DNA from: an uncultured Methanosarcinales archaeon
GTDB lineage: Archaea > Nanobdellota > Nanobdellia > Woesearchaeales > JAGVZT01
DNA length: 64,000 nucleotides
NCBI GenBank assembly: GCA_964419615.1
Contig: CAYQPU010000001.1
Coordinates: forward strand, 17,266 to 81,265
Reading direction: 5' to 3'
Shown here: positions 46,791-57,003 of the stretch, one piece after another
Numbering within the stretch: position 1 is the stretch's first letter
How the letters are laid out: each line of letters opens with the position of its first letter
The notes under the pieces: model-generated
Told to the model about the DNA's origin: nothing
The model's database searches: none
What the model saw: the letters and a program-made list of their open reading frames with translations, nothing else
Program-made: the position numbers and the translations under genes

Positions 46791-49544
46791 ATGGAAGATA
46801 ATCAACTTTTAAGAGAGCGGAAAAGAAAATTAGCTGAGCTTAGAAAAAAAGGTATTGAGCCATATGCATATAATTTTGATAAACAGCATTTTGCTGATAA
46901 AATATTAAAAGAATATAATAAATATGAAGATAAGAAAGTAAGTGTTGCTGGAAGAGTTATGTCTATGAGGGATATGGGAAAGGTTAGATTTGCTCATATT
47001 AATGATTCTACTGCACAGATTCAATTGTATTTTAAAAAAGATATTATTGGCAGTGATAAGTATTCTGTGTTAAAGCTACTGGATATTGGAGATATTATTG
47101 GATGCCAAGGAAAGGTGTTTAAGACAAACAAAGGTGAAGTGAGCATTGAGGTAAAAAGCTTTAGTCTGTTGACAAAATCTCTAAAACCTCTTCCTGAGAA
47201 ATGGCATGGTATTAAGGATAAAGAACTTCAATATCGGCAAAGGTATGTTCATTTAATAATGAATCCTGATGAAAAACAAGTATTTGTGACCAGAGAAAAG
47301 ATTATTGGTGGGATTAGGCAATACCTGTTGGATAGAGACTATGTTGAGGTTCAAACCCCAATCTTGCAACCTATGTATGGAGGTGCTTCAGCAAGACCTT
47401 TTGAAGCAAATCTACATGCTTTGAATATGCCTGTTTATATGAGAATTTCTAATGAGATGTATCTGAAAAGGCTTATTGTGAGCGGCTTTGACAGAGTATT
47501 TGAGTTTTCAATTGATTTTAGAAATGAAGGAATTGATAAAAACCATAATCCTGAATTTTTATTGTTTGAAGCAATGACTGCATATACAGACTATTTTGAC
47601 GGTATGAAATTGATTGAGGATATTACTGAGCATGTTGTTAAGAAAGTTAAAGGTACAACAAAAGTTAATTATCAGGGAAAAGTTATTGATTTTAAGGTTC
47701 CCTGGACCCGAATTTCTGTTAGAGAGTCTATTTTAAAATATGCTAAAATTGATATTGAAAAAGTAGACGATAATGAGCTAAAAAAGATTTTGGATAAAAA
47801 CAAGATCCAACTAAAAGGGCAATACACTCGAGGAAATGCAATTTTGGCTTTGGTTGATGAATTTTGTGAACAGCATTTTGTACAGCCAACAATTCTTTAT
47901 GATTATCCAAGGGAAACTTCTCCACTATCAAAACCAAAAAGAGATGACCCAAAATATACCGAGAGATTTGAGCAGTTTGTAAACTGTTCTGAATTAGGAA
48001 ATAATTATACAGAGGTTACCAATCCTCAAATTCTCAGAGAGAATTGGGAAAATGAAGAGGATGCATTGAGTAAAGGAGATTATGAGGCAATGAGAATGGA
48101 CTATGATTACCTTAATGCTCTTGAAGTTGGAATGCCTCCAGTTTGTGGGATTGCAATTGGTATTGACAGATTGATAATGATTCTTACTGACAAAATATCT
48201 ATTAGAGATGTTATTTTGTTTCCATTTATGAAACCATTGGACATGCCAAAGCCGCAGCTTCAGACTGTCCAGCTTAAAGATATATCCGGGAGTAAAGTTA
48301 TTGTAACAAAGGGAGCTCAAGATCTGGGTTTAAAAACAGCTTATGCAATAATTGATGGAGTTAATGTTAAGTCCAAACATGAAGAGTTGGAAAAACAAAA
48401 AAAGAAAGCTGGTATTCTAAAGGCAGATACAGGGAAGTTAAATGGTATGCAAGAAGCTTATAGATCATTTGGTATTGATCCAACTAAGAGGATCCCTAGT
48501 GCAGAAGCTTTGATAAAAAGAGTTGAACAAGGAAAAGGGATATACAAAGTAAATACGTTAGTAGATGCTTATAATCTTTCTTCTATTAGAGAAAGTTTAC
48601 CAATGGCTGCTTATGATTTAGTCAAAGTTAACTGGCCAATCAAATTAAGAGAGGCTAAAGAAGGCGAAGAAATAACTATTATTGGTGGGGATAAAAAGAA
48701 AACAAAACAAGGAGAGATTATTTATGCTGATGAATCAAGAGTGTTATGTTTAGATTTTAATTATAGAGACTGTGATTTTACTAAGATCACAAATAAAACT
48801 AAGCAAGTTATTGTTTTTGTTGATGGATGCATTGGAGTTAGTGATGATGAATTATTGCAATCTCTTGATAACACGTGTGATTTAATTACTCAGTTTAATG
48901 GTGGGGAGGTTGTTGAGAAATGTATTGCAGGAAGAGAAGCTTTATCTGAAAAAACTTCCTTGTCAAAACCTCCACTTACAAGAGAGCAAGCATGGGCACT
49001 TATTAAAAAGTACAATAAGCATGAACCAGATACTTATCATTTTCTTGAAAGTGAAGCAATAATGAAGGCTTTGGCTGAAAAGCTAGGTGAAGATGTTGAT
49101 GCTTGGGGAATGCTTGGTTTATTACATGATGTTGATTGGGGTTTGACTAAAGATAATGTGAGTGAGCATACAGTTAAGTCTATTGAGATTCTAAAGGAAG
49201 CTGGATTTAAGGAAGATTTTATTGAAGCTGTTGCATCCCATAATTATGGCTGGCCAGGTGGACAGTGGGCAGATAAGAAGAGAACAAAAAAAGTTCATTT
49301 TGCCCTTGCTTGTGCAGAAACCCTAACTGGATTAATACATACTTATGCTTTGATGAGAAAGGATAAAATACAAGGCATGAAAGCAAAGGGTCTAAAAAAG
49401 AAGTTTAAGGACAAGAGCTTTGCAGCTAAGGTAAATAGAAATATCATCAGAGAATGTGAAAAGATTGGTCTGAGTATGGATGAATTTTTTAATCTAGCAA
49501 TTGATGCTGTACGCAAGATTGCAGACCAAGTAAAGCTTAAATAG
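46791..49544 (+). CDS. lysS: Class II lysyl-tRNA synthetase fused to B3/4 (PheT-like) and HD domains
   Basis: OB-fold (VSVAGRVM), YRQRY, FRNEGID..HNPEF, GIAIGIDRL, RDVILFP; then YRSFGIDPTK..PSAEAL..INTL-like VNTLVDAYN; then GLLHDVD. Confidence 0.93.
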   Translation: MEDNQLLRERKRKLAELRKKGIEPYAYNFDKQHFADKILKEYNKYEDKKVSVAGRVMSMRDMGKVRFAHINDSTAQIQLYFKKDIIGSDKYSVLKLLDIGDIIGCQGKVFKTNKGEVSIEVKSFSLLTKSLKPLPEKWHGIKDKELQYRQRYVHLIMNPDEKQVFVTREKIIGGIRQYLLDRDYVEVQTPILQPMYGGASARPFEANLHALNMPVYMRISNEMYLKRLIVSGFDRVFEFSIDFRNEGIDKNHNPEFLLFEAMTAYTDYFDGMKLIEDITEHVVKKVKGTTKVNYQGKVIDFKVPWTRISVRESILKYAKIDIEKVDDNELKKILDKNKIQLKGQYTRGNAILALVDEFCEQHFVQPTILYDYPRETSPLSKPKRDDPKYTERFEQFVNCSELGNNYTEVTNPQILRENWENEEDALSKGDYEAMRMDYDYLNALEVGMPPVCGIAIGIDRLIMILTDKISIRDVILFPFMKPLDMPKPQLQTVQLKDISGSKVIVTKGAQDLGLKTAYAIIDGVNVKSKHEELEKQKKKAGILKADTGKLNGMQEAYRSFGIDPTKRIPSAEALIKRVEQGKGIYKVNTLVDAYNLSSIRESLPMAAYDLVKVNWPIKLREAKEGEEITIIGGDKKKTKQGEIIYADESRVLCLDFNYRDCDFTKITNKTKQVIVFVDGCIGVSDDELLQSLDNTCDLITQFNGGEVVEKCIAGREALSEKTSLSKPPLTREQAWALIKKYNKHEPDTYHFLESEAIMKALAEKLGEDVDAWGMLGLLHDVDWGLTKDNVSEHTVKSIEILKEAGFKEDFIEAVASHNYGWPGGQWADKKRTKKVHFALACAETLTGLIHTYALMRKDKIQGMKAKGLKKKFKDKSFAAKVNRNIIRECEKIGLSMDEFFNLAIDAVRKIADQVKLK

Positions 49545-49549
49545 TTTTA

Positions 49550-51553
49550 TTATACTTTTCCTTTTATTTTTTCTTTAAGATTTACTATCTTGTTAAAGAC
49601 TTCTTCTTTTTTCTTTTTTGGTAAAAGTGTGTATAACTCATTTATACTCAAATACAGAACATGAGCTCTTTTATAGTCCCTTATATTTACCACTTCTGTT
49701 GCTTCATCCAAAAGCATGTCAATTTTTTTGACTGGATCTAGTTTTTTATCAGTTGTGTCAGCTACTTTAGCTATATTTTTTGGAGCAATTCTTAGGACAT
49801 ATTTTTTAATGATGTGTTTTTTGATAATTGTATTAAGCAAGACTATTAGTACAGCAAAGAATGCTACATAAGCTACTAACAAAATCAAAGCTGAAACCTG
49901 GCTTACAAAGTAACTTTCTGAGATTATTGCTGGAAGCTTGGCATTAAATAGTATGCTTCTTCTAAGCAAGAATTGACTAATCACAAAAGGATTAAATCTA
50001 GCAATATCAATGAAATGCAAAGGCATTGATTCCAAAGGTAATATTACATCTGACAAGAACAAACTGATACTTGTGAAAGATATGGCTGCGAGTGTTCCTG
50101 TTTCAGCTGAATTAAATGCCACACCAATCAGTATTCCTATTAATGAGAATAAGATCGTGATCATGAGCAATATGATGCTTGTTGGTAGAATGTTTGTTAG
50201 AACATTTACATCAAATACAAAGTATGATATGCTTAATATTAAGATTAATTGAAGTACAACAAGGATTAGCGTGCTTAATAGATTTGCCACAAGATATAGT
50301 ATGTCAGGATTTGGAACAATTAGATTTCTAAAGTATGCTTTAGAACGTTTTTCCATCATAACTATTGTGGATGAGAATAAAATTGATACTAGCATCACAA
50401 CTAGTGCAACTATGCTTGGGAACATGTAGTTTAGATAGGTTTGAGATACAACTTCCTCTTTTGTTGTTTTGATAGGACTTACAATGGTCTCAGTTTCTGT
50501 TATTTGAATTTGATCAATATCTTTTTTGATGTCTTCCAATCCAGATTTTACAGCCATTAACTTGTTTAAACTGTCTTCAAGATCTTTAGTGCTATCACTA
50601 ATTCCTCTTGTAACCTCGGTTTTCTTATTCGATGCAGATTTTAGTTTGTCCTTTGTTGAGGCAAGTTCAGTTTCAATATTGTCTACTGCTGATTTTAATG
50701 AACCAATTGTTTCACTGTTCAAGTCTTCCAATTCTTCCTGAATGTCCTCTAGATTGTCTTCCAGGTCTTCAACATCAGATTCTGTTGAGGTTCCATTTAA
50801 GGTAGAGTCTCCTATATCATCAATAATATCATCCACAAGATCAAGGCTTTCGTTTAATAACTCATTTAAACTGCTGTTTGAGGCAAGTACTGAAGAACTT
50901 AGTGTTGTTTCAACTTTTCTTAGGTCGCTGATTTTATAGTTTTCTTCATTGATGTCAAAATCCATTTCCCCAAGATTTCCTTTCATTTTAGCCTGGGTTA
51001 ATTGAACTCTATCATTAATTTCAACAAGTTCAGTGAATTTTGGATTTTGTTCATCTATAGTTGTTTTTGTGTTATCAAGTGTGTTTAGAATGACTGTTGT
51101 GAGTTCTGCACTTATTTCTTGAGTTCTAGAAGCAACTTTTGTAGAGATCATATCAATAACACTATCTGCAAGATTCATTCTAGATGGATCAACATAGAAT
51201 TTTATTTCATTACTGACATCGGGTTTACCTGCTTCTGCAATTTCAAAGTTTTTGGGAAAGGACATGCAGATATTTACTATTCCTTGCCTTAGATTGTCCT
51301 GACATATTAATTCAGTATCTGTTTTTAATATTCTAAATTGAGATTCTTCAAGTTTGGCAACAAATGAGTTAACTAGATCGTTGTATTCAGGAGAGTATAC
51401 ACCGATGTTGATGCTATAATTAGAGGCATTATTAAAAGCTAGTCCAACAAGTAATGTTATTATTAAAGGCCCAAATACTGTTATCAGTGCAGATACTTTG
51501 GATCGGATTATTAATCTAAAGTTCTTGGTTATTACTCTAATCAGTTTGTTCAT
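49550..51553 (-). CDS. ABC-2 type permease with a large extracytoplasmic coiled-coil region
   Basis: N-terminal TM, about 300-aa heptad-rich acidic region, C-terminal multi-TM ABC-2 block. Confidence 0.85.
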   Translation of the reverse strand: MNKLIRVITKNFRLIIRSKVSALITVFGPLIITLLVGLAFNNASNYSINIGVYSPEYNDLVNSFVAKLEESQFRILKTDTELICQDNLRQGIVNICMSFPKNFEIAEAGKPDVSNEIKFYVDPSRMNLADSVIDMISTKVASRTQEISAELTTVILNTLDNTKTTIDEQNPKFTELVEINDRVQLTQAKMKGNLGEMDFDINEENYKISDLRKVETTLSSSVLASNSSLNELLNESLDLVDDIIDDIGDSTLNGTSTESDVEDLEDNLEDIQEELEDLNSETIGSLKSAVDNIETELASTKDKLKSASNKKTEVTRGISDSTKDLEDSLNKLMAVKSGLEDIKKDIDQIQITETETIVSPIKTTKEEVVSQTYLNYMFPSIVALVVMLVSILFSSTIVMMEKRSKAYFRNLIVPNPDILYLVANLLSTLILVVLQLILILSISYFVFDVNVLTNILPTSIILLMITILFSLIGILIGVAFNSAETGTLAAISFTSISLFLSDVILPLESMPLHFIDIARFNPFVISQFLLRRSILFNAKLPAIISESYFVSQVSALILLVAYVAFFAVLIVLLNTIIKKHIIKKYVLRIAPKNIAKVADTTDKKLDPVKKIDMLLDEATEVVNIRDYKRAHVLYLSINELYTLLPKKKKEEVFNKIVNLKEKIKGKV

Positions 51554-53271: not shown

Positions 53272-56200
53272 CTACAAATACTTTACAAGATAGTAATCAA
53301 CGATATCTTCTGGCCAGCCTGCATCTAGTAAGGCCTTTTTAACAAATTCTCGACTAATCCCTCTTGATTTACAATTTTTAACAAAATTCTCAAGATCAGT
53401 ATGATGATGTTCTTTAGTAATACTTTTTGTTTTTTGTTTTTGGTGGGAGATGTATTTTTCTATGTTTTTCATAGAATTCATATGATCATATTTTTTGTAA
53501 CCTATGATTGCTCCAACAAATGCACTGATTACTACAAGGAAGATTATTATCACAAATATTTTGCTTATTTCTTTTTTGTGTGTTTGAGGTGCTTCCTGTT
53601 CGGGCTCTGCATTTGGCTCTTGCTCTACAGGTTCTTGGATAACCTCAATTTCTTCTTGTTCTGATTCCGCTTCTGTTTGCCGCACCTGAGGTGTGATTGA
53701 AACGATTGCAAATTTGCTAAATGAAACACTTGTTGCCTGGTACTGATAATAACCAGATCTTTGACCAATTAATTCAGTTGGAAGTTGGATCCATTTAGTT
53801 GTATATTTGTACAGTTTTATGTGTGATGCTGAACTTGAATTAGCTGTAATCCAAGATCTTGGTACTTTGAATTTGATAGATACTGATTCATAGTCTGTAT
53901 CTTCAATATCTTTCTCAGATATTTCAAGGATTTTGTATAGAGTGCTGTTTGAGACTATTGTTTCAGTATCTTTCAATGATTCAACAGTTAGTTCAACACT
54001 ACTTGTGTTTTTGTTTAATACAAATGTTAAGTTTGTGAATGCAATCTCATCATTATTAATACTCATGATGTTTTCTGTGCTAGATTTAACATCTATCCAT
54101 TTTTTGGATGCACTTGGATTTGGCACTGTTGTTATTGAACCGCCTCCACCTCCACCACCTTCTGAACTTCCAGCTGCATTTATTGTGAAATTGTGAGTAA
54201 ATTCTCCACTTATTCTATTGGATCTGTCAATACATTTTATGTAGTATGTTTGTGCTCCGTTTGATAGACCTCCAACATAGACTGTATGACTTAAACCAGG
54301 TTCATCAAATGTACCGTTCATGTCATAGTAATTTGTTCCATTTGTCATATAGTATCTACAAGCTGCCCATTCACTTGTGGTTAGTCTAAGACTTGTTGAT
54401 GTATCATATACTGTACCCTGTGGTTGCCATTCAGTGATATTTGGAGGAGAGATGTCTGATGATAGGTTTAGTGGAGTTTTGGTTAATAACTCCACACCAC
54501 CTATTGTTGTGTTGATAGATACATCAGGGAGAGATATGTTATACGACAGATTGTAGTTAGAGGTGTTGTACGTCAAATTCAGTATAGCATATCCACTTCC
54601 TGTTGAACCACTCCAAAGAGTGGTTTGATTGTCAATTATGGTTAAGTTTTTGCTTACTTCAGGGAGTCCAGAGTAATTGATTATGTAGATTGGGTAGAAT
54701 CTGGTTAGTTGTCCTGATAAGCTCAGATTAAGGAATTGTGCAATTCCATCAATAGTTGATGTTCCACTTGTGTTTAGCTGCCTTGTGATATTTGTGAATT
54801 CTGTGAAGTTGGCAGTTGTATTTGTTAAGGACAAATCAATTATTGTTGAGTTTATCAAAGTGAGGTTTGAATTAATGGAGGTAAACAAGCTGATGTTTGA
54901 GTTTTCCATTGTTATTGATGAGGTTGTTGTACCTATTTGCATTAATCCGATTGTTGTGTTGGTTAAAGTTAGTGTTGTGCCTGCAACTAGGCTAATGTTG
55001 TTAAGGCCAGTTGTTAATGTTGTAAAGTTAGTGTTTTGTGTTGCTATGTTTAACTGTACTATTGAAAGAGCTGAATTTGTTAATTGAATTGTTCCGTTGT
55101 TTAGGGTTATCATATCCGAGGTAAGAGTGGATATCTGGTTATTTGAACTACCTCTTATTGTTATATTCCGGAATACAGAATTGGAAATAATTGAATTTGT
55201 AGTTCCAGATAATTCAACATTGGTGTTGGTTGTGCTATCATTTATGTTTAGCATGAATTGATTTGAGAAGTTAAATGCTGTGCTTGAGTTAAATGTTGAT
55301 GAAAGGATAGATATGTTTTGATTATTGGTAAACATAGATTGATGATTTGTTAAAACAACATCTGATCTATCAAAATAGTAGTCATATCCCAAACTTTCAA
55401 TCACAGATGAATTTGTTAGTGTTAATGTGCTGACGTTTGTGGCTGTAATTCCAGTGCTGAAGTTTCTAAAAGCACAGTCAATGATGTTTAGACTGTTATA
55501 GTTTTGAGTAGAGAGTGCTGTTCCAATTATTGTTCCTCTAACTGGATAATTGCTGCAATTTAATGTTATTGAATTGTTCATTACTTCAAAACAAACTCCA
55601 CCACCAGAGTAGCTGATATTGCTTTGTATTGTGTATGAGTTGTAGAGTTTTCTACAGTTGTCAAATGTTGAGAAGTTGTATGGCCCTGATTCTGCGCAGT
55701 ACCCAGATGCATAGCAGCTCGTGACATTAAAGTAATATAATGAAGCTGATGCAAGATTTGAGATTGAAACTTGATGTCCACCTAGAGTTACAGATGTGTT
55801 TGTTGATAGATTTCCAAGGTTGATTGAGGTTCCATAGTCTATTGTTGAATTTCCTGACAACATTGTGTCCCAATTAATTATTGCTGTTTGGTTTGAAACT
55901 GATAATGTACTTACATTTTCAATGCTGCTTGTTGCATTAACAAAGACTGTTCTCATTTCCTCTGTGAAATTGTCACAACCAGAGGTTAGGTAAGTGTAAT
56001 TATGATAACCACTGCTTACAACAACAGGGTTTGTTGTATTTGTGCCGTCAAAGTATAATGTGTAATTACATCCAACATCACCTACATTTGTTTCAGATGC
56101 TGATATGTTAACTCCTTCAGATGTTACCTTGGTTTCGTATGTTCGAAAGCCAGTTAATACTCCGTCCTCTTCTCCTGCAATTATGTGCCAAATTCCTTGA

Positions 56201-57003
56201 TGATGAAATACTGTTGGTGCAGAGTAGGCTCCAATGTCAGAAAGTCCAGTTTCAATTGCATTGTAGTCTGACCAAGCATTTGTTTGCCATATTTTAGCAT
56301 GGAATCTACCAGTGGCATCTCCTGAGATTAAGTAAAACTCACCATCTTTTTGGAATGCAGAAGGTGTTGAACCCCAGTCTCCGATTGACAAGCTTGTATT
56401 TATTGTATTATTTTGATCCCAACCGCTTCCATTCCAGTTAAATCCATAAAACCCTCCAACTTCTTCTCCTGAAATTAAGTATACTGTATTGTTCATTTCA
56501 AATACTGTGAGTGTGGAATAGTCTCCTATATCTCCAAGACCTGCTGATACTGTGCTATTTGCAGTCCATGTTGAACCACTTCTATGGTAACCACTAAAGG
56601 TTCCATCTTGTTGTCCAATTAAAAGATACCAGTTTCCATTTATTTGGAATGCTTTTGGAGCCGCAAAGTTTTCTGTGGATAGACCAGATAATATTGATGA
56701 GTCTGTTTGCCACGCTGAACCAGACCAGTTGTACCCGTATAATAGACTTTGTTCTCCTCCAATCAAGTACAAGGTTGTGCCCATTTGGAATATTGTGACA
56801 TATGAATTTGTTCCTAAATCAGATAGTCCTGATGTTATTGCTGTATCTGATAGCCAGCCACCTTCAAGATTAGAGTATTCTGAGTTTATTGTTATGGTCA
56901 TGTTGCTTGTTGGTTTTTTTATGTTGAATGGCTTGTCAATTGCCGAAACTACAACAATTAATAGGAAAATTATAAGGCCCAGGAAGAGTTTATTTTTTCT
57001 CAT
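53272..57003 (-). CDS. Large surface glycoprotein: propeller-like repeats, Fn3-like, beta-helix-like, PGF-pre-PGF-like domain, TM anchor
   Basis: Signal peptide; five ~49-aa repeats (GL.D.G..S.P..F...G..YLI.G...G); many NxS/T sequons; FKVPRSWI...SFSKFAI; TM then LLDAGWP tail. Confidence 0.85.
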   Translation of the reverse strand: MRKNKLFLGLIIFLLIVVVSAIDKPFNIKKPTSNMTITINSEYSNLEGGWLSDTAITSGLSDLGTNSYVTIFQMGTTLYLIGGEQSLLYGYNWSGSAWQTDSSILSGLSTENFAAPKAFQINGNWYLLIGQQDGTFSGYHRSGSTWTANSTVSAGLGDIGDYSTLTVFEMNNTVYLISGEEVGGFYGFNWNGSGWDQNNTINTSLSIGDWGSTPSAFQKDGEFYLISGDATGRFHAKIWQTNAWSDYNAIETGLSDIGAYSAPTVFHHQGIWHIIAGEEDGVLTGFRTYETKVTSEGVNISASETNVGDVGCNYTLYFDGTNTTNPVVVSSGYHNYTYLTSGCDNFTEEMRTVFVNATSSIENVSTLSVSNQTAIINWDTMLSGNSTIDYGTSINLGNLSTNTSVTLGGHQVSISNLASASLYYFNVTSCYASGYCAESGPYNFSTFDNCRKLYNSYTIQSNISYSGGGVCFEVMNNSITLNCSNYPVRGTIIGTALSTQNYNSLNIIDCAFRNFSTGITATNVSTLTLTNSSVIESLGYDYYFDRSDVVLTNHQSMFTNNQNISILSSTFNSSTAFNFSNQFMLNINDSTTNTNVELSGTTNSIISNSVFRNITIRGSSNNQISTLTSDMITLNNGTIQLTNSALSIVQLNIATQNTNFTTLTTGLNNISLVAGTTLTLTNTTIGLMQIGTTTSSITMENSNISLFTSINSNLTLINSTIIDLSLTNTTANFTEFTNITRQLNTSGTSTIDGIAQFLNLSLSGQLTRFYPIYIINYSGLPEVSKNLTIIDNQTTLWSGSTGSGYAILNLTYNTSNYNLSYNISLPDVSINTTIGGVELLTKTPLNLSSDISPPNITEWQPQGTVYDTSTSLRLTTSEWAACRYYMTNGTNYYDMNGTFDEPGLSHTVYVGGLSNGAQTYYIKCIDRSNRISGEFTHNFTINAAGSSEGGGGGGGSITTVPNPSASKKWIDVKSSTENIMSINNDEIAFTNLTFVLNKNTSSVELTVESLKDTETIVSNSTLYKILEISEKDIEDTDYESVSIKFKVPRSWITANSSSASHIKLYKYTTKWIQLPTELIGQRSGYYQYQATSVSFSKFAIVSITPQVRQTEAESEQEEIEVIQEPVEQEPNAEPEQEAPQTHKKEISKIFVIIIFLVVISAFVGAIIGYKKYDHMNSMKNIEKYISHQKQKTKSITKEHHHTDLENFVKNCKSRGISREFVKKALLDAGWPEDIVDYYLVKYL

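What the first reader, a model, noticed from the sequence alone, without database searches (positions are those of the whole stretch)
46791..49544. Class II LysRS carrying fused B3/4 editing-like and HD domains
Seen: one 917-aa ORF with a complete class II LysRS (to about 48240), a B3/4-like domain (about 48290-48930) and an HD domain (about 48970-49544, GLLHDVD), no internal stops. Established: most archaea use class I LysRS; class II LysRS lacks a dedicated editing domain; B3/4 edits Tyr-tRNA in PheRS and free-standing B3/4 proteins such as CtdA deacylate mischarged tRNA. Inference: cis-editing of near-cognates such as ornithine (a LysW-pathway product), with HD hydrolysing Ap4A-type by-products that LysRS-II can make, or acting on tRNA ends.
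Basis: partly seen in the sequence, partly recalled or inferred. Interest (0 to 1): 0.75.

Follow-up and report, generated by a model that had tools for sequence, protein, structure and literature searches.

The report
LysRS fused to deacylase and HD
The only lysine-tRNA charging enzyme of this tiny Woesearchaeota archaeon carries two extra enzyme modules. One is a relative of a known tRNA proofreading enzyme (CtdA) that recurs on both unrelated classes of LysRS, suggesting an undescribed proofreading step for lysine; the other is an HD hydrolase of unknown substrate.

Summary
ORF 46791-49544 (+) is one 917-aa frame: a canonical class II LysRS, a B3/4 module and an HD module. It is the only LysRS found in a 99%-complete genome.

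It is not an artefact. The triple fusion recurs in about ten unrelated metagenomic proteins. The same-genus genome has a syntenic LysRS-B3/4 gene that differs by a clean ~620-bp in-frame indel carrying the HD.

The B3/4 module has the fold of the free-standing deacylase CtdA (TM 0.84), not that of PheRS-beta. It sits in a supported clade (98/87) made almost entirely of modules fused to LysRS. Class I and class II partners are interleaved and share one pocket signature. A sister clade holds the ArgRS fusions and is closest to CtdA, whose known substrate is canavanyl-tRNA(Arg). My best reading is a post-transfer editing domain for mischarged tRNA(Lys); the target amino acid is unknown.

The HD belongs to a ~194-aa HDIG family with all six metal ligands kept. 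It is an operon partner of lysS in Pacearchaeota, and 117 of 129 fusions counted are to LysRS of either class. The Ap4A idea is weakened: class I fusions exist and the nearest profiles are RNA-linked HDs.

This scan had already noted LysRS-HD fusions in CPR bacteria (e1-701596). I found no paper on either fusion.

The parts
46791..49544 (+). Whole 917-aa fusion gene (LysRS-II, B3/4, HD); the stop codon is at 49542-49544
   Evidence: Single ORF with no internal stops. It is the only class II LysRS match in the genome, and no class I LysRS was found.
46938..47171 (+). OB-fold anticodon-binding domain of LysRS (aa 50-127)
   Evidence: Pfam PF01336, 7e-18.
47217..48230 (+). Class II catalytic core of LysRS (aa 143-480)
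   Evidence: Pfam PF00152, 6e-76. Full-length alignment to G. stearothermophilus LysRS 3a74 at 455 bits, with the FRNEG (motif 2) and GIGIDRL (motif 3) regions conserved.
48237..48281 (+). Linker 1 (about aa 483-497), low-confidence and unstructured
   Evidence: The first 9 residues of the B3/4 model have pLDDT below 50. This is the boundary between the LysRS and B3/4 phmmer envelopes.
48282..48935 (+). CtdA-type B3/B4 module (aa 498-715). Pocket and core residues: R577, D592, Y594, N595, A606, A607, D609, Y645, D647, C653, L654, D655, N657, R659, D660
   Evidence: Pfam B3_4, 6.6e-21. AF2 model pLDDT 94. Foldseek TM 0.84 and rmsd 2.4 A to CtdA 9f7e, against 0.57-0.65 to PheRS-beta. Clade signature.
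48936..48977 (+). Linker 2 (about aa 716-729), joining the B3/4 end to the point where free-standing HD proteins begin (PLTREQA)
   Evidence: Alignment A1: free-standing homologues start M-x-x-LP[IL]xREQA, which corresponds to aa ~727-733 here.
48978..49541 (+). HDIG-type HD module (aa 730-917). Conserved putative metal ligands: H750, H779, D780, H817, H850, D874
   Evidence: Pfam HD 7e-11 and HDIG TIGR00277. These columns are invariant or nearly so in 27 family members. AF2 pLDDT 91. HD-fold matches at Z 9-12.5.
48934..49554 (+). ~620-bp segment present here and missing from the syntenic same-genus locus (G020). It carries linker 2, the HD and the stop codon
   Evidence: DNA alignment A3. G020 reads ...ATT GCT TAA and then the shared downstream sequence. 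The window reads ...ATT GCA GGA AGA..., continues through the HD, and then rejoins the same downstream sequence.

Best explanation
This is the housekeeping class II lysyl-tRNA synthetase of a Woesearchaeota (DPANN) archaeon that has acquired two accessory enzyme modules at its C-terminus.

Module 1 (aa ~498-715) is a CtdA-family B3/B4 aminoacyl-tRNA deacylase of a lysine-associated clade. I infer that it hydrolyses a non-cognate aminoacyl group that LysRS has placed on tRNA(Lys). That would be post-transfer editing, either in cis or by recapture right after release, while the cognate Lys-tRNA(Lys) is spared. Its pocket keeps the residues shared by all B3/4 deacylases but replaces the Arg-Arg pair of the CtdA/ArgRS-type pocket with [L/I/M]-Asp. 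This points to a different side chain, probably a cationic or lysine-like analogue such as ornithine, thialysine/oxalysine or a modified lysine. The identity of the target is not shown.

Module 2 (aa ~730-917) is a catalytically intact HDIG phosphohydrolase, apparently binuclear, from a family that is normally a free-standing ~194-aa protein and is co-transcribed with lysS in related archaea. It works alongside LysRS of either class. Its substrate is unknown. I lean towards an RNA or tRNA phosphodiester over a dinucleoside polyphosphate.

Shown: the architecture, the folds, residue conservation, recurrence, phylogeny and synteny. Inferred: both catalytic activities and all substrates.
For: Real gene and sole LysRS.

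Recurrence: the triple fusion occurs in P0002, P0011, P0023, P0024, P0029, P0030, P0184, P0213 and P0371, from different samples and phyla. One of them has the HD and B3/4 in swapped order.

Synteny: the same-genus genome G020 has a 710-aa LysRS-B3/4 gene with the same downstream ABC-2 permease and a clean ~620-bp indel.

B3/4 identity: CtdA is the best PDB sequence hit at 1.9e-7. The fold has TM 0.84 to CtdA against at most 0.65 to PheRS-beta.

B3/4 phylogeny: in the careful tree a 38-row clade (UFBoot 98, SH-aLRT 87) holds 13 class I fusions, 21 class II fusions, 3 free forms and 1 tRNA_bind fusion, with class I and class II sister pairs at 100/99 and 97/92. A separate clade (99/92) holds all 4 ArgRS fusions and is nearest to CtdA (4e-20), whose proven substrate is canavanyl-tRNA(Arg). 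A third clade holds the MetRS fusions (PMC12449066).

Free forms: several 'free' Lys-clade members are fragments of LysRS fusions. The closest truly separate one overlaps the 3' end of lysS.

Pocket signature: it is the same in class I-fused, class II-fused and free members. N595 is in 77/78, D655 in 71/78 (against R in 4/4 ArgRS fusions) and D660 in 77/78; D660 corresponds to the essential Q173 of CtdA, where Glu is tolerated.

HD: more than 3000 free-standing homologues at ~60% identity, with H, HD, H, H and D columns invariant or nearly so. The HD gene starts 1 nt after the lysS stop in Pacearchaeota-type contigs. In the partner census 117 of 129 fusions are to LysRS, including 4 to class I.
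Against: No biochemical data exist for any member of the Lys-associated B3/4 clade or of this HD family.

LysRS is known (from my own knowledge: Jakubowski 1999) to clear ornithine and homocysteine before transfer by cyclisation, so the need for a post-transfer domain is not obvious.

Both modules are sporadic in this order: the HD family is in 15 of 121 genomes and the B3/4 module in 19 of 121. They are therefore accessory, not essential.

Three CtdA pocket positions differ here (G116 to A, E118 to Y, Q173 to D), and the equivalent of C166 is Cys in only 45 of 78 clade members. Catalytic competence is therefore inferred from conservation alone.

The HD subfamily is unresolved. The structural matches are tied: GlyRS-beta HD-like domain Z 12.5, PgpH 11.9, HD-GYP 11.5, YqeK ~9. 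For helical folds such Z values can reflect shared architecture only. The HD also fuses to FtsY, S3 and NYN domains, so it is not strictly specific to LysRS.
Confidence: 0.6

Rival explanations
1. The HD module is a YqeK-like symmetrical Ap4A/Np4N hydrolase that removes the dinucleoside polyphosphates made by class II LysRS as a side reaction.
For: With a family profile, the only PDB sequence hits are YqeK-family entries: 2ogi at E 0.025 and the Ap4A hydrolase 8jja at E 0.12. The spacing of the first His and the HD doublet matches. The family has the six-ligand H..HD..H..H..D pattern typical of binuclear HD phosphodiesterases. Its size (~194 aa) is similar to YqeK. Class II LysRS is a classic source of Ap4A (my own knowledge). 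112 of the 129 fusions counted are to class II LysRS without B3/4 or with it.
Against: Those PDB hits are weak and cover only the N-terminal third. The HD is also fused to class I LysRS (P0353, P0359, P0361, P0367), which activates lysine only with tRNA bound (my own knowledge), and to FtsY, S3 and NYN domains. All 27 family members approach the RNase Y HD and the aTrm56-HD (PRK12703) profiles, while only 1 of 27 touches a NadD-YqeK model at E 0.014. YqeK structures score Z ~9.1, below GlyRS-beta, PgpH and HD-GYP.
Confidence: 0.25
2. The HD module acts on RNA, most likely tRNA(Lys). It could be a 2',3'-cyclic phosphodiesterase or phosphatase that heals tRNA ends, or an RNase Y-like nuclease, tethered to its client through LysRS.
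For: The nearest curated profiles for 27 of 27 members are the RNase Y HD domain (best 3e-7) and the HD fused to the tRNA methyltransferase aTrm56 (best 2e-7). The top structural match is the GlyRS-beta HD-like domain that clamps the tRNA acceptor arm (Z 12.5; PMC8464048). Every fusion partner binds RNA in translation: LysRS I and II, FtsY, ribosomal protein S3 and NYN. The association is independent of LysRS class, as expected if the shared feature is tRNA(Lys).
Against: The profile E-values are far below family cut-offs and cover only the core HD motif region. The structural Z values are tied with cyclic-dinucleotide phosphodiesterases. No RNA-binding motif was identified. Nothing explains why tRNA(Lys) in particular would need such an activity.
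Confidence: 0.35
3. The B3/4 module is not a hydrolase here. Instead it is an appended tRNA-binding or chaperoning domain that raises the affinity of LysRS for tRNA(Lys), like other non-catalytic domains appended to synthetases.
For: Non-catalytic appended tRNA-binding domains are common in synthetases, and the GlyRS-beta HD-like domain is one example (PMC8464048). One Lys-clade member is fused only to a tRNA_bind domain (P0185). Pocket positions G116, E118 and Q173 of CtdA are changed.
Against: The residues conserved across all B3/4 deacylases are nearly invariant in the Lys clade: D592 78/78, Y594 73/78, N595 77/78, Y645, D647 and R659 78/78, N657 and D660 77/78. That pattern fits a conserved active site better than a binding surface. 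The sister clade includes an experimentally proven deacylase. Truly free-standing members exist (P0214, P0188).
Confidence: 0.12
4. The fusion is an assembly chimera, or a stop codon lost only on this contig, and the three parts are really separate genes.
For: The genome is a 64-contig MAG and read support cannot be inspected. Split versions do exist elsewhere: lysS and HD as adjacent genes, and lysS and B3/4 overlapping by 52 nt.
Against: The same co-linear triple fusion is found in independent samples: P0002 at 60% identity, P0371, P0184, P0213 and others. Both flanks of the HD segment are syntenic with the same-genus genome, and the indel is exactly in frame. Composition is uniform across both junctions, with GC 0.30-0.37.
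Confidence: 0.03

Closest known systems
CtdA, canavanyl-tRNA(Arg) deacylase (free-standing B3/B4 protein; PDB 9f7e, 9mkl; PMC10018355, PMC12449066)
   Same: Same fold over the full length, including the CtdA-specific helical insert (TM 0.83-0.84, rmsd 2.4-2.6 A). CtdA is the best PDB sequence hit. The equivalents of N105 and C166 are kept, and Q173 is replaced by Asp (Glu is tolerated in C. perfringens CtdA).
   Different: Only ~20% identical. It lies in a different, supported clade (98/87 against 99/92). It is fused to LysRS rather than free. The pocket has AA where CtdA has GG (G116/G117), Tyr/Phe in place of E118, and [L/I/M]-D in place of RR after the pocket Cys. The associated tRNA is Lys, not Arg. 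The published CtdA phylogeny kept only proteins of 180-260 aa, so fusions were excluded.
PheRS beta-subunit B3/B4 editing domain (Tyr/m-Tyr-tRNA(Phe) hydrolysis)
   Same: The only previously known case of a B3/4 hydrolase built into a synthetase for cis editing. Both match the Pfam B3_4 family, and the PM-x-A-[FY]-DL stretch resembles PheRS PMHAFDL.
   Different: The structural match is weaker (TM 0.57-0.65). The editing-site His of PMHAFD is Ala here. The PheRS-specific inserts that dock onto B1/B5 and the alpha subunit are missing. This genome has its own ordinary PheRS-beta on another contig.
Canonical bacterial-type class II LysRS (LysS/LysU; PDB 3a74, 1e1o, 1bbu)
   Same: Aa 1-482 align end to end at 431-455 bits and score above the NCBIfam lysS cut-offs.
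   Different: Known LysRS enzymes have no hydrolytic editing domain and no HD domain. This one carries ~435 extra C-terminal residues.
YqeK, HD-domain symmetrical Ap4A hydrolase (PDB 2ogi, 2o08, 8wmy, 8jja)
   Same: HD fold, similar size, six-ligand motif pattern, and a weak profile hit over the H...HD region.
   Different: No match to curated YqeK models for 26 of 27 family members. Z ~9.1, below other HD subfamilies. Different gene context: lysS here, nadD for YqeK.
HD-like domain of bacterial GlyRS beta subunit (PDB 7yse, 7eiv; PMC8464048)
   Same: Top structural match (Z 12.5, 163 residues, rmsd 3.8 A). It is also an HD fold built into a class II synthetase system, where it contacts the tRNA acceptor arm.
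   Different: In E. coli GlyRS the HD doublet has degenerated to Ser-Lys and no nucleotide binding was seen. Here the H, HD, H, H and D columns are invariant or nearly so, which implies an active metal site.

Membership tests
Class II lysyl-tRNA synthetase (lysS) | Scores above the curated lysS family cut-offs | tested here: met
   NF001756 scores 617 bits against a cut-off of 468; TIGR00499 scores 537 against 427.6.
Class II lysyl-tRNA synthetase (lysS) | N-terminal OB anticodon-binding domain plus a class II catalytic core with motifs 2 and 3 | tested here: met
   PF01336 and PF00152. End-to-end alignment to 3a74 with the FRNEG and GIGIDRL regions conserved.
Class II lysyl-tRNA synthetase (lysS) | Charges tRNA(Lys) with lysine | not testable with these tools
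   Indirect support only: it is the sole LysRS of either class found in a 99%-complete genome.
CtdA family (free-standing B3/B4 aminoacyl-tRNA deacylases) | B3/B4 fold with the CtdA-type topology | tested here: met
   Model pLDDT 94. TM 0.84/0.82 to 9f7e over 224 columns, against at most 0.65 to PheRS-beta.
CtdA family (free-standing B3/B4 aminoacyl-tRNA deacylases) | Falls in the CtdA-1 clade, the one that contains the characterised enzymes | tested here: not met
   It lies in a separate starred clade (98/87). The clade nearest to solved CtdA is the one holding the ArgRS fusions (99/92; 4e-20 to 9f7e).
CtdA family (free-standing B3/B4 aminoacyl-tRNA deacylases) | Pocket residues N105, G116, E118, C166, Q173 (S. 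enterica numbering) | tested here: inconclusive
   N105 corresponds to N595 and C166 to C653, both kept. G116 corresponds to A606, E118 to Y608 and Q173 to D660, all changed. The paper reports that Glu is tolerated at position 173.
CtdA family (free-standing B3/B4 aminoacyl-tRNA deacylases) | Hydrolyses canavanyl-tRNA(Arg) | not testable with these tools
   The fusion partner and the pocket signature argue for a different substrate, bound to tRNA(Lys).
PheRS beta B3/B4 editing domain | Embedded in a PheRS beta subunit and carries the editing-site His of PMHAFD | tested here: not met
   It is fused to LysRS. The motif reads PMAAYD, with Ala in place of His. The genome's PheRS-beta is elsewhere.
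HD superfamily, HDIG subgroup (PF01966 / TIGR00277) | H...HD...D metal-binding motifs and an all-helical HD fold | tested here: met
   PF01966 scores 42.8 bits against a cut-off of 22; TIGR00277 scores 41.8-44.9 against 27.6. H750, H779, D780, H817, H850 and D874 are conserved. HD folds match at Z 9-12.5.
YqeK symmetrical Ap4A hydrolase | Matches YqeK sequence models or structures better than other HD subfamilies | tested here: inconclusive
   Weak profile hits to 2ogi and 8jja at E 0.025 and 0.12. YqeK structures score Z ~9.1, below GlyRS-beta, PgpH and HD-GYP. 1 of 27 members touches a NadD-YqeK model.
YqeK symmetrical Ap4A hydrolase | Hydrolyses Ap4A to 2 ADP | not testable with these tools

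The most novel reading that the evidence does not exclude
The Lys-associated branch of the CtdA/B3/4 family is a true post-transfer editing domain for lysyl-tRNA synthetases. It would be the first for an enzyme regarded as lacking one, and it has been recruited interchangeably by the two unrelated LysRS classes across CPR bacteria, Chloroflexi and DPANN archaea. More broadly, CtdA-type modules would be portable proofreading cassettes that also plug into ArgRS and MetRS. The HD partner would then be a second, still unknown quality-control activity acting on tRNA(Lys) or on a LysRS by-product.
Probability: 0.5. Interest if true: 0.85.

Novelty: new variant of a known kind. Interest (0 to 1): 0.72.

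Why it matters
LysRS, ArgRS and MetRS are the standard examples of synthetases with no dedicated hydrolytic editing domain. Here a CtdA-type deacylase module turns up repeatedly on all three. The clade structure follows the amino acid or tRNA, not the synthetase fold: class I and class II LysRS share one module clade and one pocket signature.

This gives a concrete, testable function to a large uncharacterised part of the B3/4 family. That part may include the CtdA-2 group, which Maldonado et al. left unassigned. It also points to an unrecognised fidelity problem at lysine codons, perhaps specific to scavenging symbionts with tiny genomes.

The HD partner defines a second conserved protein family of thousands of members at ~60% identity across DPANN and CPR. 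Its only functional clue is its attachment to LysRS. Both activities can be tested with ordinary recombinant-enzyme assays.

Tried and rejected
1. I proposed that the HD pairs only with class II LysRS, which would have favoured Ap4A hydrolysis. The search for longer proteins refuted this: four class I LysRS-HD fusions exist.

2. I asked whether the HD-FtsY fusions come from a lysS-HD-ftsY gene string. They do not. They sit in the usual prefoldin-ftsY context with no lysS nearby.

3. PDB sequence search with the single HD sequence found nothing. Foldseek against the PDB gave no hit at E <= 0.001. The ESM Atlas returned only 'HD domain-containing protein'.

4. The search for related loci in genome contigs with the whole protein confirmed no relatives, so organism names came only from homologue annotations and from the match of G020 to P0003.

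5. Literature searches found nothing describing these fusions. I searched for LysRS with B3/B4, for LysRS with HD/Ap4A/fusion, for aaRS with DPANN and editing domain, for DUF2000, and for LysRS with CPR or Woesearchaeota. The two CtdA papers do not mention LysRS or fusions.

6. No tRNA genes or Rfam elements occur in the window. The neighbouring genes (EamA transporter, ABC-2 transporter, ArsR-type regulator, AAA ATPases) give no functional hint.

7. The first 178-row quick tree supported the Lys clade only moderately (SH-aLRT 80), so I rebuilt it carefully with 78 rows. I did not run the AU test I had planned.
Full report
**Observation.** The window holds one uninterrupted 917-aa ORF at 46791-49544 (+). 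Pfam finds an OB anticodon-binding domain (aa 50-127), a class II catalytic core (143-480, 6e-76), a B3_4 domain (554-679, 6.6e-21) and an HD domain (749-824, 7e-11), each above its gathering score. NCBIfam lysS models score 617 and 537 bits, above cut-offs of 468 and 428. Residues 1-482 align end to end with solved bacterial-type LysRS structures (455 bits to 3a74), with the motif 2 and motif 3 regions intact.

The genome is 1.48 Mb in 64 contigs and 99% complete. It has no other class II LysRS, and the class I LysRS model gives only weak hits around the KMSKS region of other class I synthetases. This protein must therefore do the cell's lysine charging. The only other B3_4 match in the genome is the ordinary PheRS-beta.

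**Organism.** The closest homologues are annotated Candidatus Woesearchaeota. The same-genus genome G020 carries a 710-aa protein of the same length as P0003, on a contig of the same length (76,175 bp) as that protein's Woesearchaeota MAG contig. Earlier notes of this scan also call the genome a Woesearchaeota/Nanoarchaeota DPANN archaeon.

**Not an artefact.** Co-linear LysRS-B3/4-HD proteins occur in independent samples: P0002 (60% identical over the C-terminal 428 residues), P0023, P0024, P0030, P0184, P0213 and P0371. Two Dojkabacteria proteins of ~1110 aa add a DUF2000 domain, and one of them has the HD before the B3/4.

G020 has LysRS-B3/4 followed by the same convergent ABC-2 permease gene as in the window. 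A DNA alignment shows a clean ~620-bp difference. G020 reads ATT GCT TAA and runs into the shared downstream sequence. The window reads ATT GCA GGA AGA and continues in frame through the HD before rejoining that sequence. Composition is even across both junctions. No HD of this family was found in G020 with this query. Read support itself could not be checked.

**The B3/4 module.** By sequence its best PDB hits are the two CtdA structures (1.9e-7 and 2e-6), ahead of PheRS-beta. An AlphaFold model built on 34 sequences has pLDDT 94. It superposes on CtdA over the full length (TM 0.83-0.84, rmsd 2.4-2.6 A), against TM 0.57-0.65 for PheRS-beta B3/B4. It is therefore a CtdA-type module, not a copy of the PheRS editing domain.

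*Fusion partners.* An exhaustive HMMER search found 2422 cluster representatives. Among the best 150, about 100 are free-standing proteins of 215-240 aa. The rest are fusions:
- to class I LysRS, mostly C-terminal, one N-terminal;
- to class II LysRS, mostly C-terminal, one N-terminal;
- to ArgRS, with the module N-terminal;
- to MetRS, as MetRS-B3/4-tRNA_bind;
- to a tRNA_bind domain alone;
- to ankyrin repeats.

*Phylogeny.* A careful IQ-TREE analysis of 78 modules resolves three supported clades:
- A 38-row clade (UFBoot 98, SH-aLRT 87) holds 13 class I fusions, 21 class II fusions, 3 free forms and one tRNA_bind fusion.
- A separate 21-row clade (99/92) holds all four ArgRS fusions, many free forms, and three LysRS fusions including both N-terminal ones. 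It is the clade nearest to solved CtdA (4e-20).
- A third clade holds the MetRS fusions (100/97).

Inside the lysine clade, class I and class II partners are sister pairs at 100/99 and 97/92. The module has therefore moved between the two unrelated LysRS folds, or the LysRS body has been swapped beneath it.

*Free forms.* Several 'free' lysine-clade representatives are fragments on contigs under 1.4 kb whose 90% clusters also contain 769-aa and 943-aa LysRS fusions. The closest truly separate relative (P0430) overlaps the 3' end of a 488-aa lysS gene by 52 nt in four contigs. P0214 and P0188 are truly unlinked.

*Why this points to tRNA(Lys).* CtdA's proven substrate is canavanyl-tRNA(Arg) (PMC10018355, PMC12449066), and the CtdA-like clade is the one fused to ArgRS. 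The fusion partner therefore predicts the tRNA in the one case where the answer is known. The same logic assigns the lysine clade to tRNA(Lys).

*Pocket.* The lysine clade keeps the residues shared by all these modules: D592, Y645, D647 and R659 in 78/78; N595, N657 and D660 in 77/78; Y594 in 73/78. It differs from the CtdA-like clade at pocket positions:
- A/G-A at 606-607, where the CtdA-like clade has G-G;
- Y/F at 608;
- [L/I/M]654-D655 (Asp in 71/78), where the CtdA-like clade has R (37/39) followed by R (20/39; 4/4 in ArgRS fusions).

The signature is the same in class I-fused, class II-fused and free members. In CtdA the aligned C166 tunes specificity, and Q173 is essential with Glu tolerated. 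Here these positions are C653 and D660. An acidic residue next to the pocket fits a cationic, lysine-like side chain, but that is inference.

Candidate targets, all from my own knowledge of LysRS misactivation, include ornithine, thialysine, oxalysine, hydroxylysine, modified lysines and arginine. None was tested. The LysW-carrier operon ~4 kb upstream makes ornithine conceivable but is no evidence for it.

**The HD module.** It belongs to a very large family of free-standing ~194-aa HDIG proteins: more than 3000 hits, 57-66% identical, in Pacearchaeota, Woesearchaeota, Odinarchaeota and others. The columns H35, H64-D65, H102 and H135 are invariant and D159 nearly so. These correspond to H750, H779, D780, H817, H850 and D874 in the fusion. 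This six-ligand pattern is typical of binuclear HD phosphodiesterases (my own knowledge).

*Gene context.* In Pacearchaeota-type contigs the HD gene starts one base after the stop of a 481-484-aa class II LysRS that is 40% identical to this one. In one contig a PIN toxin-antitoxin pair is inserted between the two genes. The Odinarchaeota copy is not linked to lysS.

*Partner census.* Among the proteins retrieved:
- LysRS-II-HD: 106
- HD-FtsY: 9
- LysRS-II-B3/4-HD: 6, plus the query and two found
- LysRS-I-HD: 4
- LysRS-II-HD-B3/4: 1
- S3-HD: 1
- HD with an NYN domain: 2

*Subfamily.* The model (pLDDT 91) matches many HD folds with tied scores: GlyRS-beta HD-like domain Z 12.5, PgpH 11.9, HD-GYP 11.5, YqeK ~9.1. 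In E. coli GlyRS the HD doublet has degenerated to Ser-Lys and the domain helps bind the acceptor arm. Here the metal site is intact, so catalysis is likely.

A family profile hits only YqeK-type entries in the PDB, and weakly (E 0.025 and 0.12, N-terminal third only). Against NCBIfam, all 27 members approach the HDs of RNase Y (best 3e-7) and of the aTrm56-HD fusion (best 2e-7), while YqeK-type models are almost absent.

I had predicted that an Ap4A role would confine the HD to class II LysRS. The class I fusions refute that prediction. The substrate remains open. I rate an RNA or tRNA phosphodiester somewhat above Np4N hydrolysis.

**Distribution.** Among 121 genomes of the order, each from a different genus apart from the window's own genome and G020, the HD family was found in 15 and the B3/4 module in 19. 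Both are accessory and patchy, like CtdA itself. That fits a niche-dependent protective role better than a core function.

**Comparison with the known, and novelty.** Synthetases with built-in editing domains, and CtdA as a free-standing B3/B4 deacylase, are both known. A B3/B4 module on LysRS of either class, on ArgRS or on MetRS is not described in any paper I could find. The CtdA phylogeny kept only proteins of 180-260 aa, which would have removed fusions. That paper left its CtdA-2 clade (Chloroflexi, Bacillota, archaea) unassigned. Many class I LysRS-B3/4 fusions here are from Anaerolineae, so the two may be the same group, but I could not test this.

This scan had already noted LysRS-HD fusions and lysS-HD adjacency in CPR bacteria (e1-701596). 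My look-ups reproduce the adjacency independently in DPANN contigs.

**Verdict.** This is a real and recurrent fusion. It is a new variant of a known kind, with a well-supported but biochemically untested editing role for the B3/4 module and an unresolved role for the HD.

Noticed in passing
P0283, P0296, P0297, P0309, P0239 (metagenomic proteins, 849-1124 aa): ArgRS proteins carry an N-terminal CtdA-like B3/4 module, and P0239 has two copies. They fall in the clade nearest to solved CtdA, so they look like built-in canavanine-type editing on ArgRS, an enzyme regarded as having no editing domain.
   Followed up: partly
P0308, P0318 (877 and 928 aa): MetRS-B3/4-tRNA_bind fusions form their own supported clade (100/97) together with two free-standing proteins. 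This may be a methionine-analogue editing module.
   Followed up: partly
P0011, P0029 (Candidatus Dojkabacteria LysRS, 1121 and 1107 aa): These LysRS proteins carry B3/4, HD and a further C-terminal PF09391 (DUF2000) domain. The order of B3/4 and HD is swapped between the two proteins. The nature of DUF2000 was not examined, and no papers mention it.
   Followed up: no
P0009, P0010, P0012, P0017, P0018, P0027, P0339, P0346, P0358; loci L026-L031: In several Woesearchaeota/Nanoarchaeota the same HD family replaces the N-terminal region of the SRP receptor FtsY. These genes sit in the usual prefoldin-ftsY context with no lysS nearby.
   Followed up: partly
P0329 (419 aa); P0340, P0341 (377-389 aa): The same HD family is fused to ribosomal protein S3 (KH_2 plus S3_C) and, in two proteins, to an NYN ribonuclease-type domain.
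   Followed up: no
L016/L017 3365-3999: An 80-aa gene plus a PIN-domain gene (a VapBC-like toxin-antitoxin pair) is inserted exactly between lysS and its HD partner in one Pacearchaeota contig. Related contigs have the two genes 1 nt apart.
   Followed up: no
L033 2086-4199; L034 2-2094: A 488-aa lysS gene and a 232-aa B3/4 gene overlap by 52 nt in different frames, in four contigs from separate samples. This is either a truly split form of the fusion or a conserved frameshift.
   Followed up: no
P0003 (= G020 gene, L032 1799-3931): The NCBI record names this LysRS-B3/4 protein 'Aspartate--tRNA(Asp/Asn) ligase', which looks like a misannotation. Its LysRS part matches the query at 6e-270.
   Followed up: partly
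window 53272-57003 (-): A 1243-aa ORF with no Pfam match at E <= 0.001 lies downstream of an ArsR-type regulator and the ABC-2 transporter pair.
   Followed up: no
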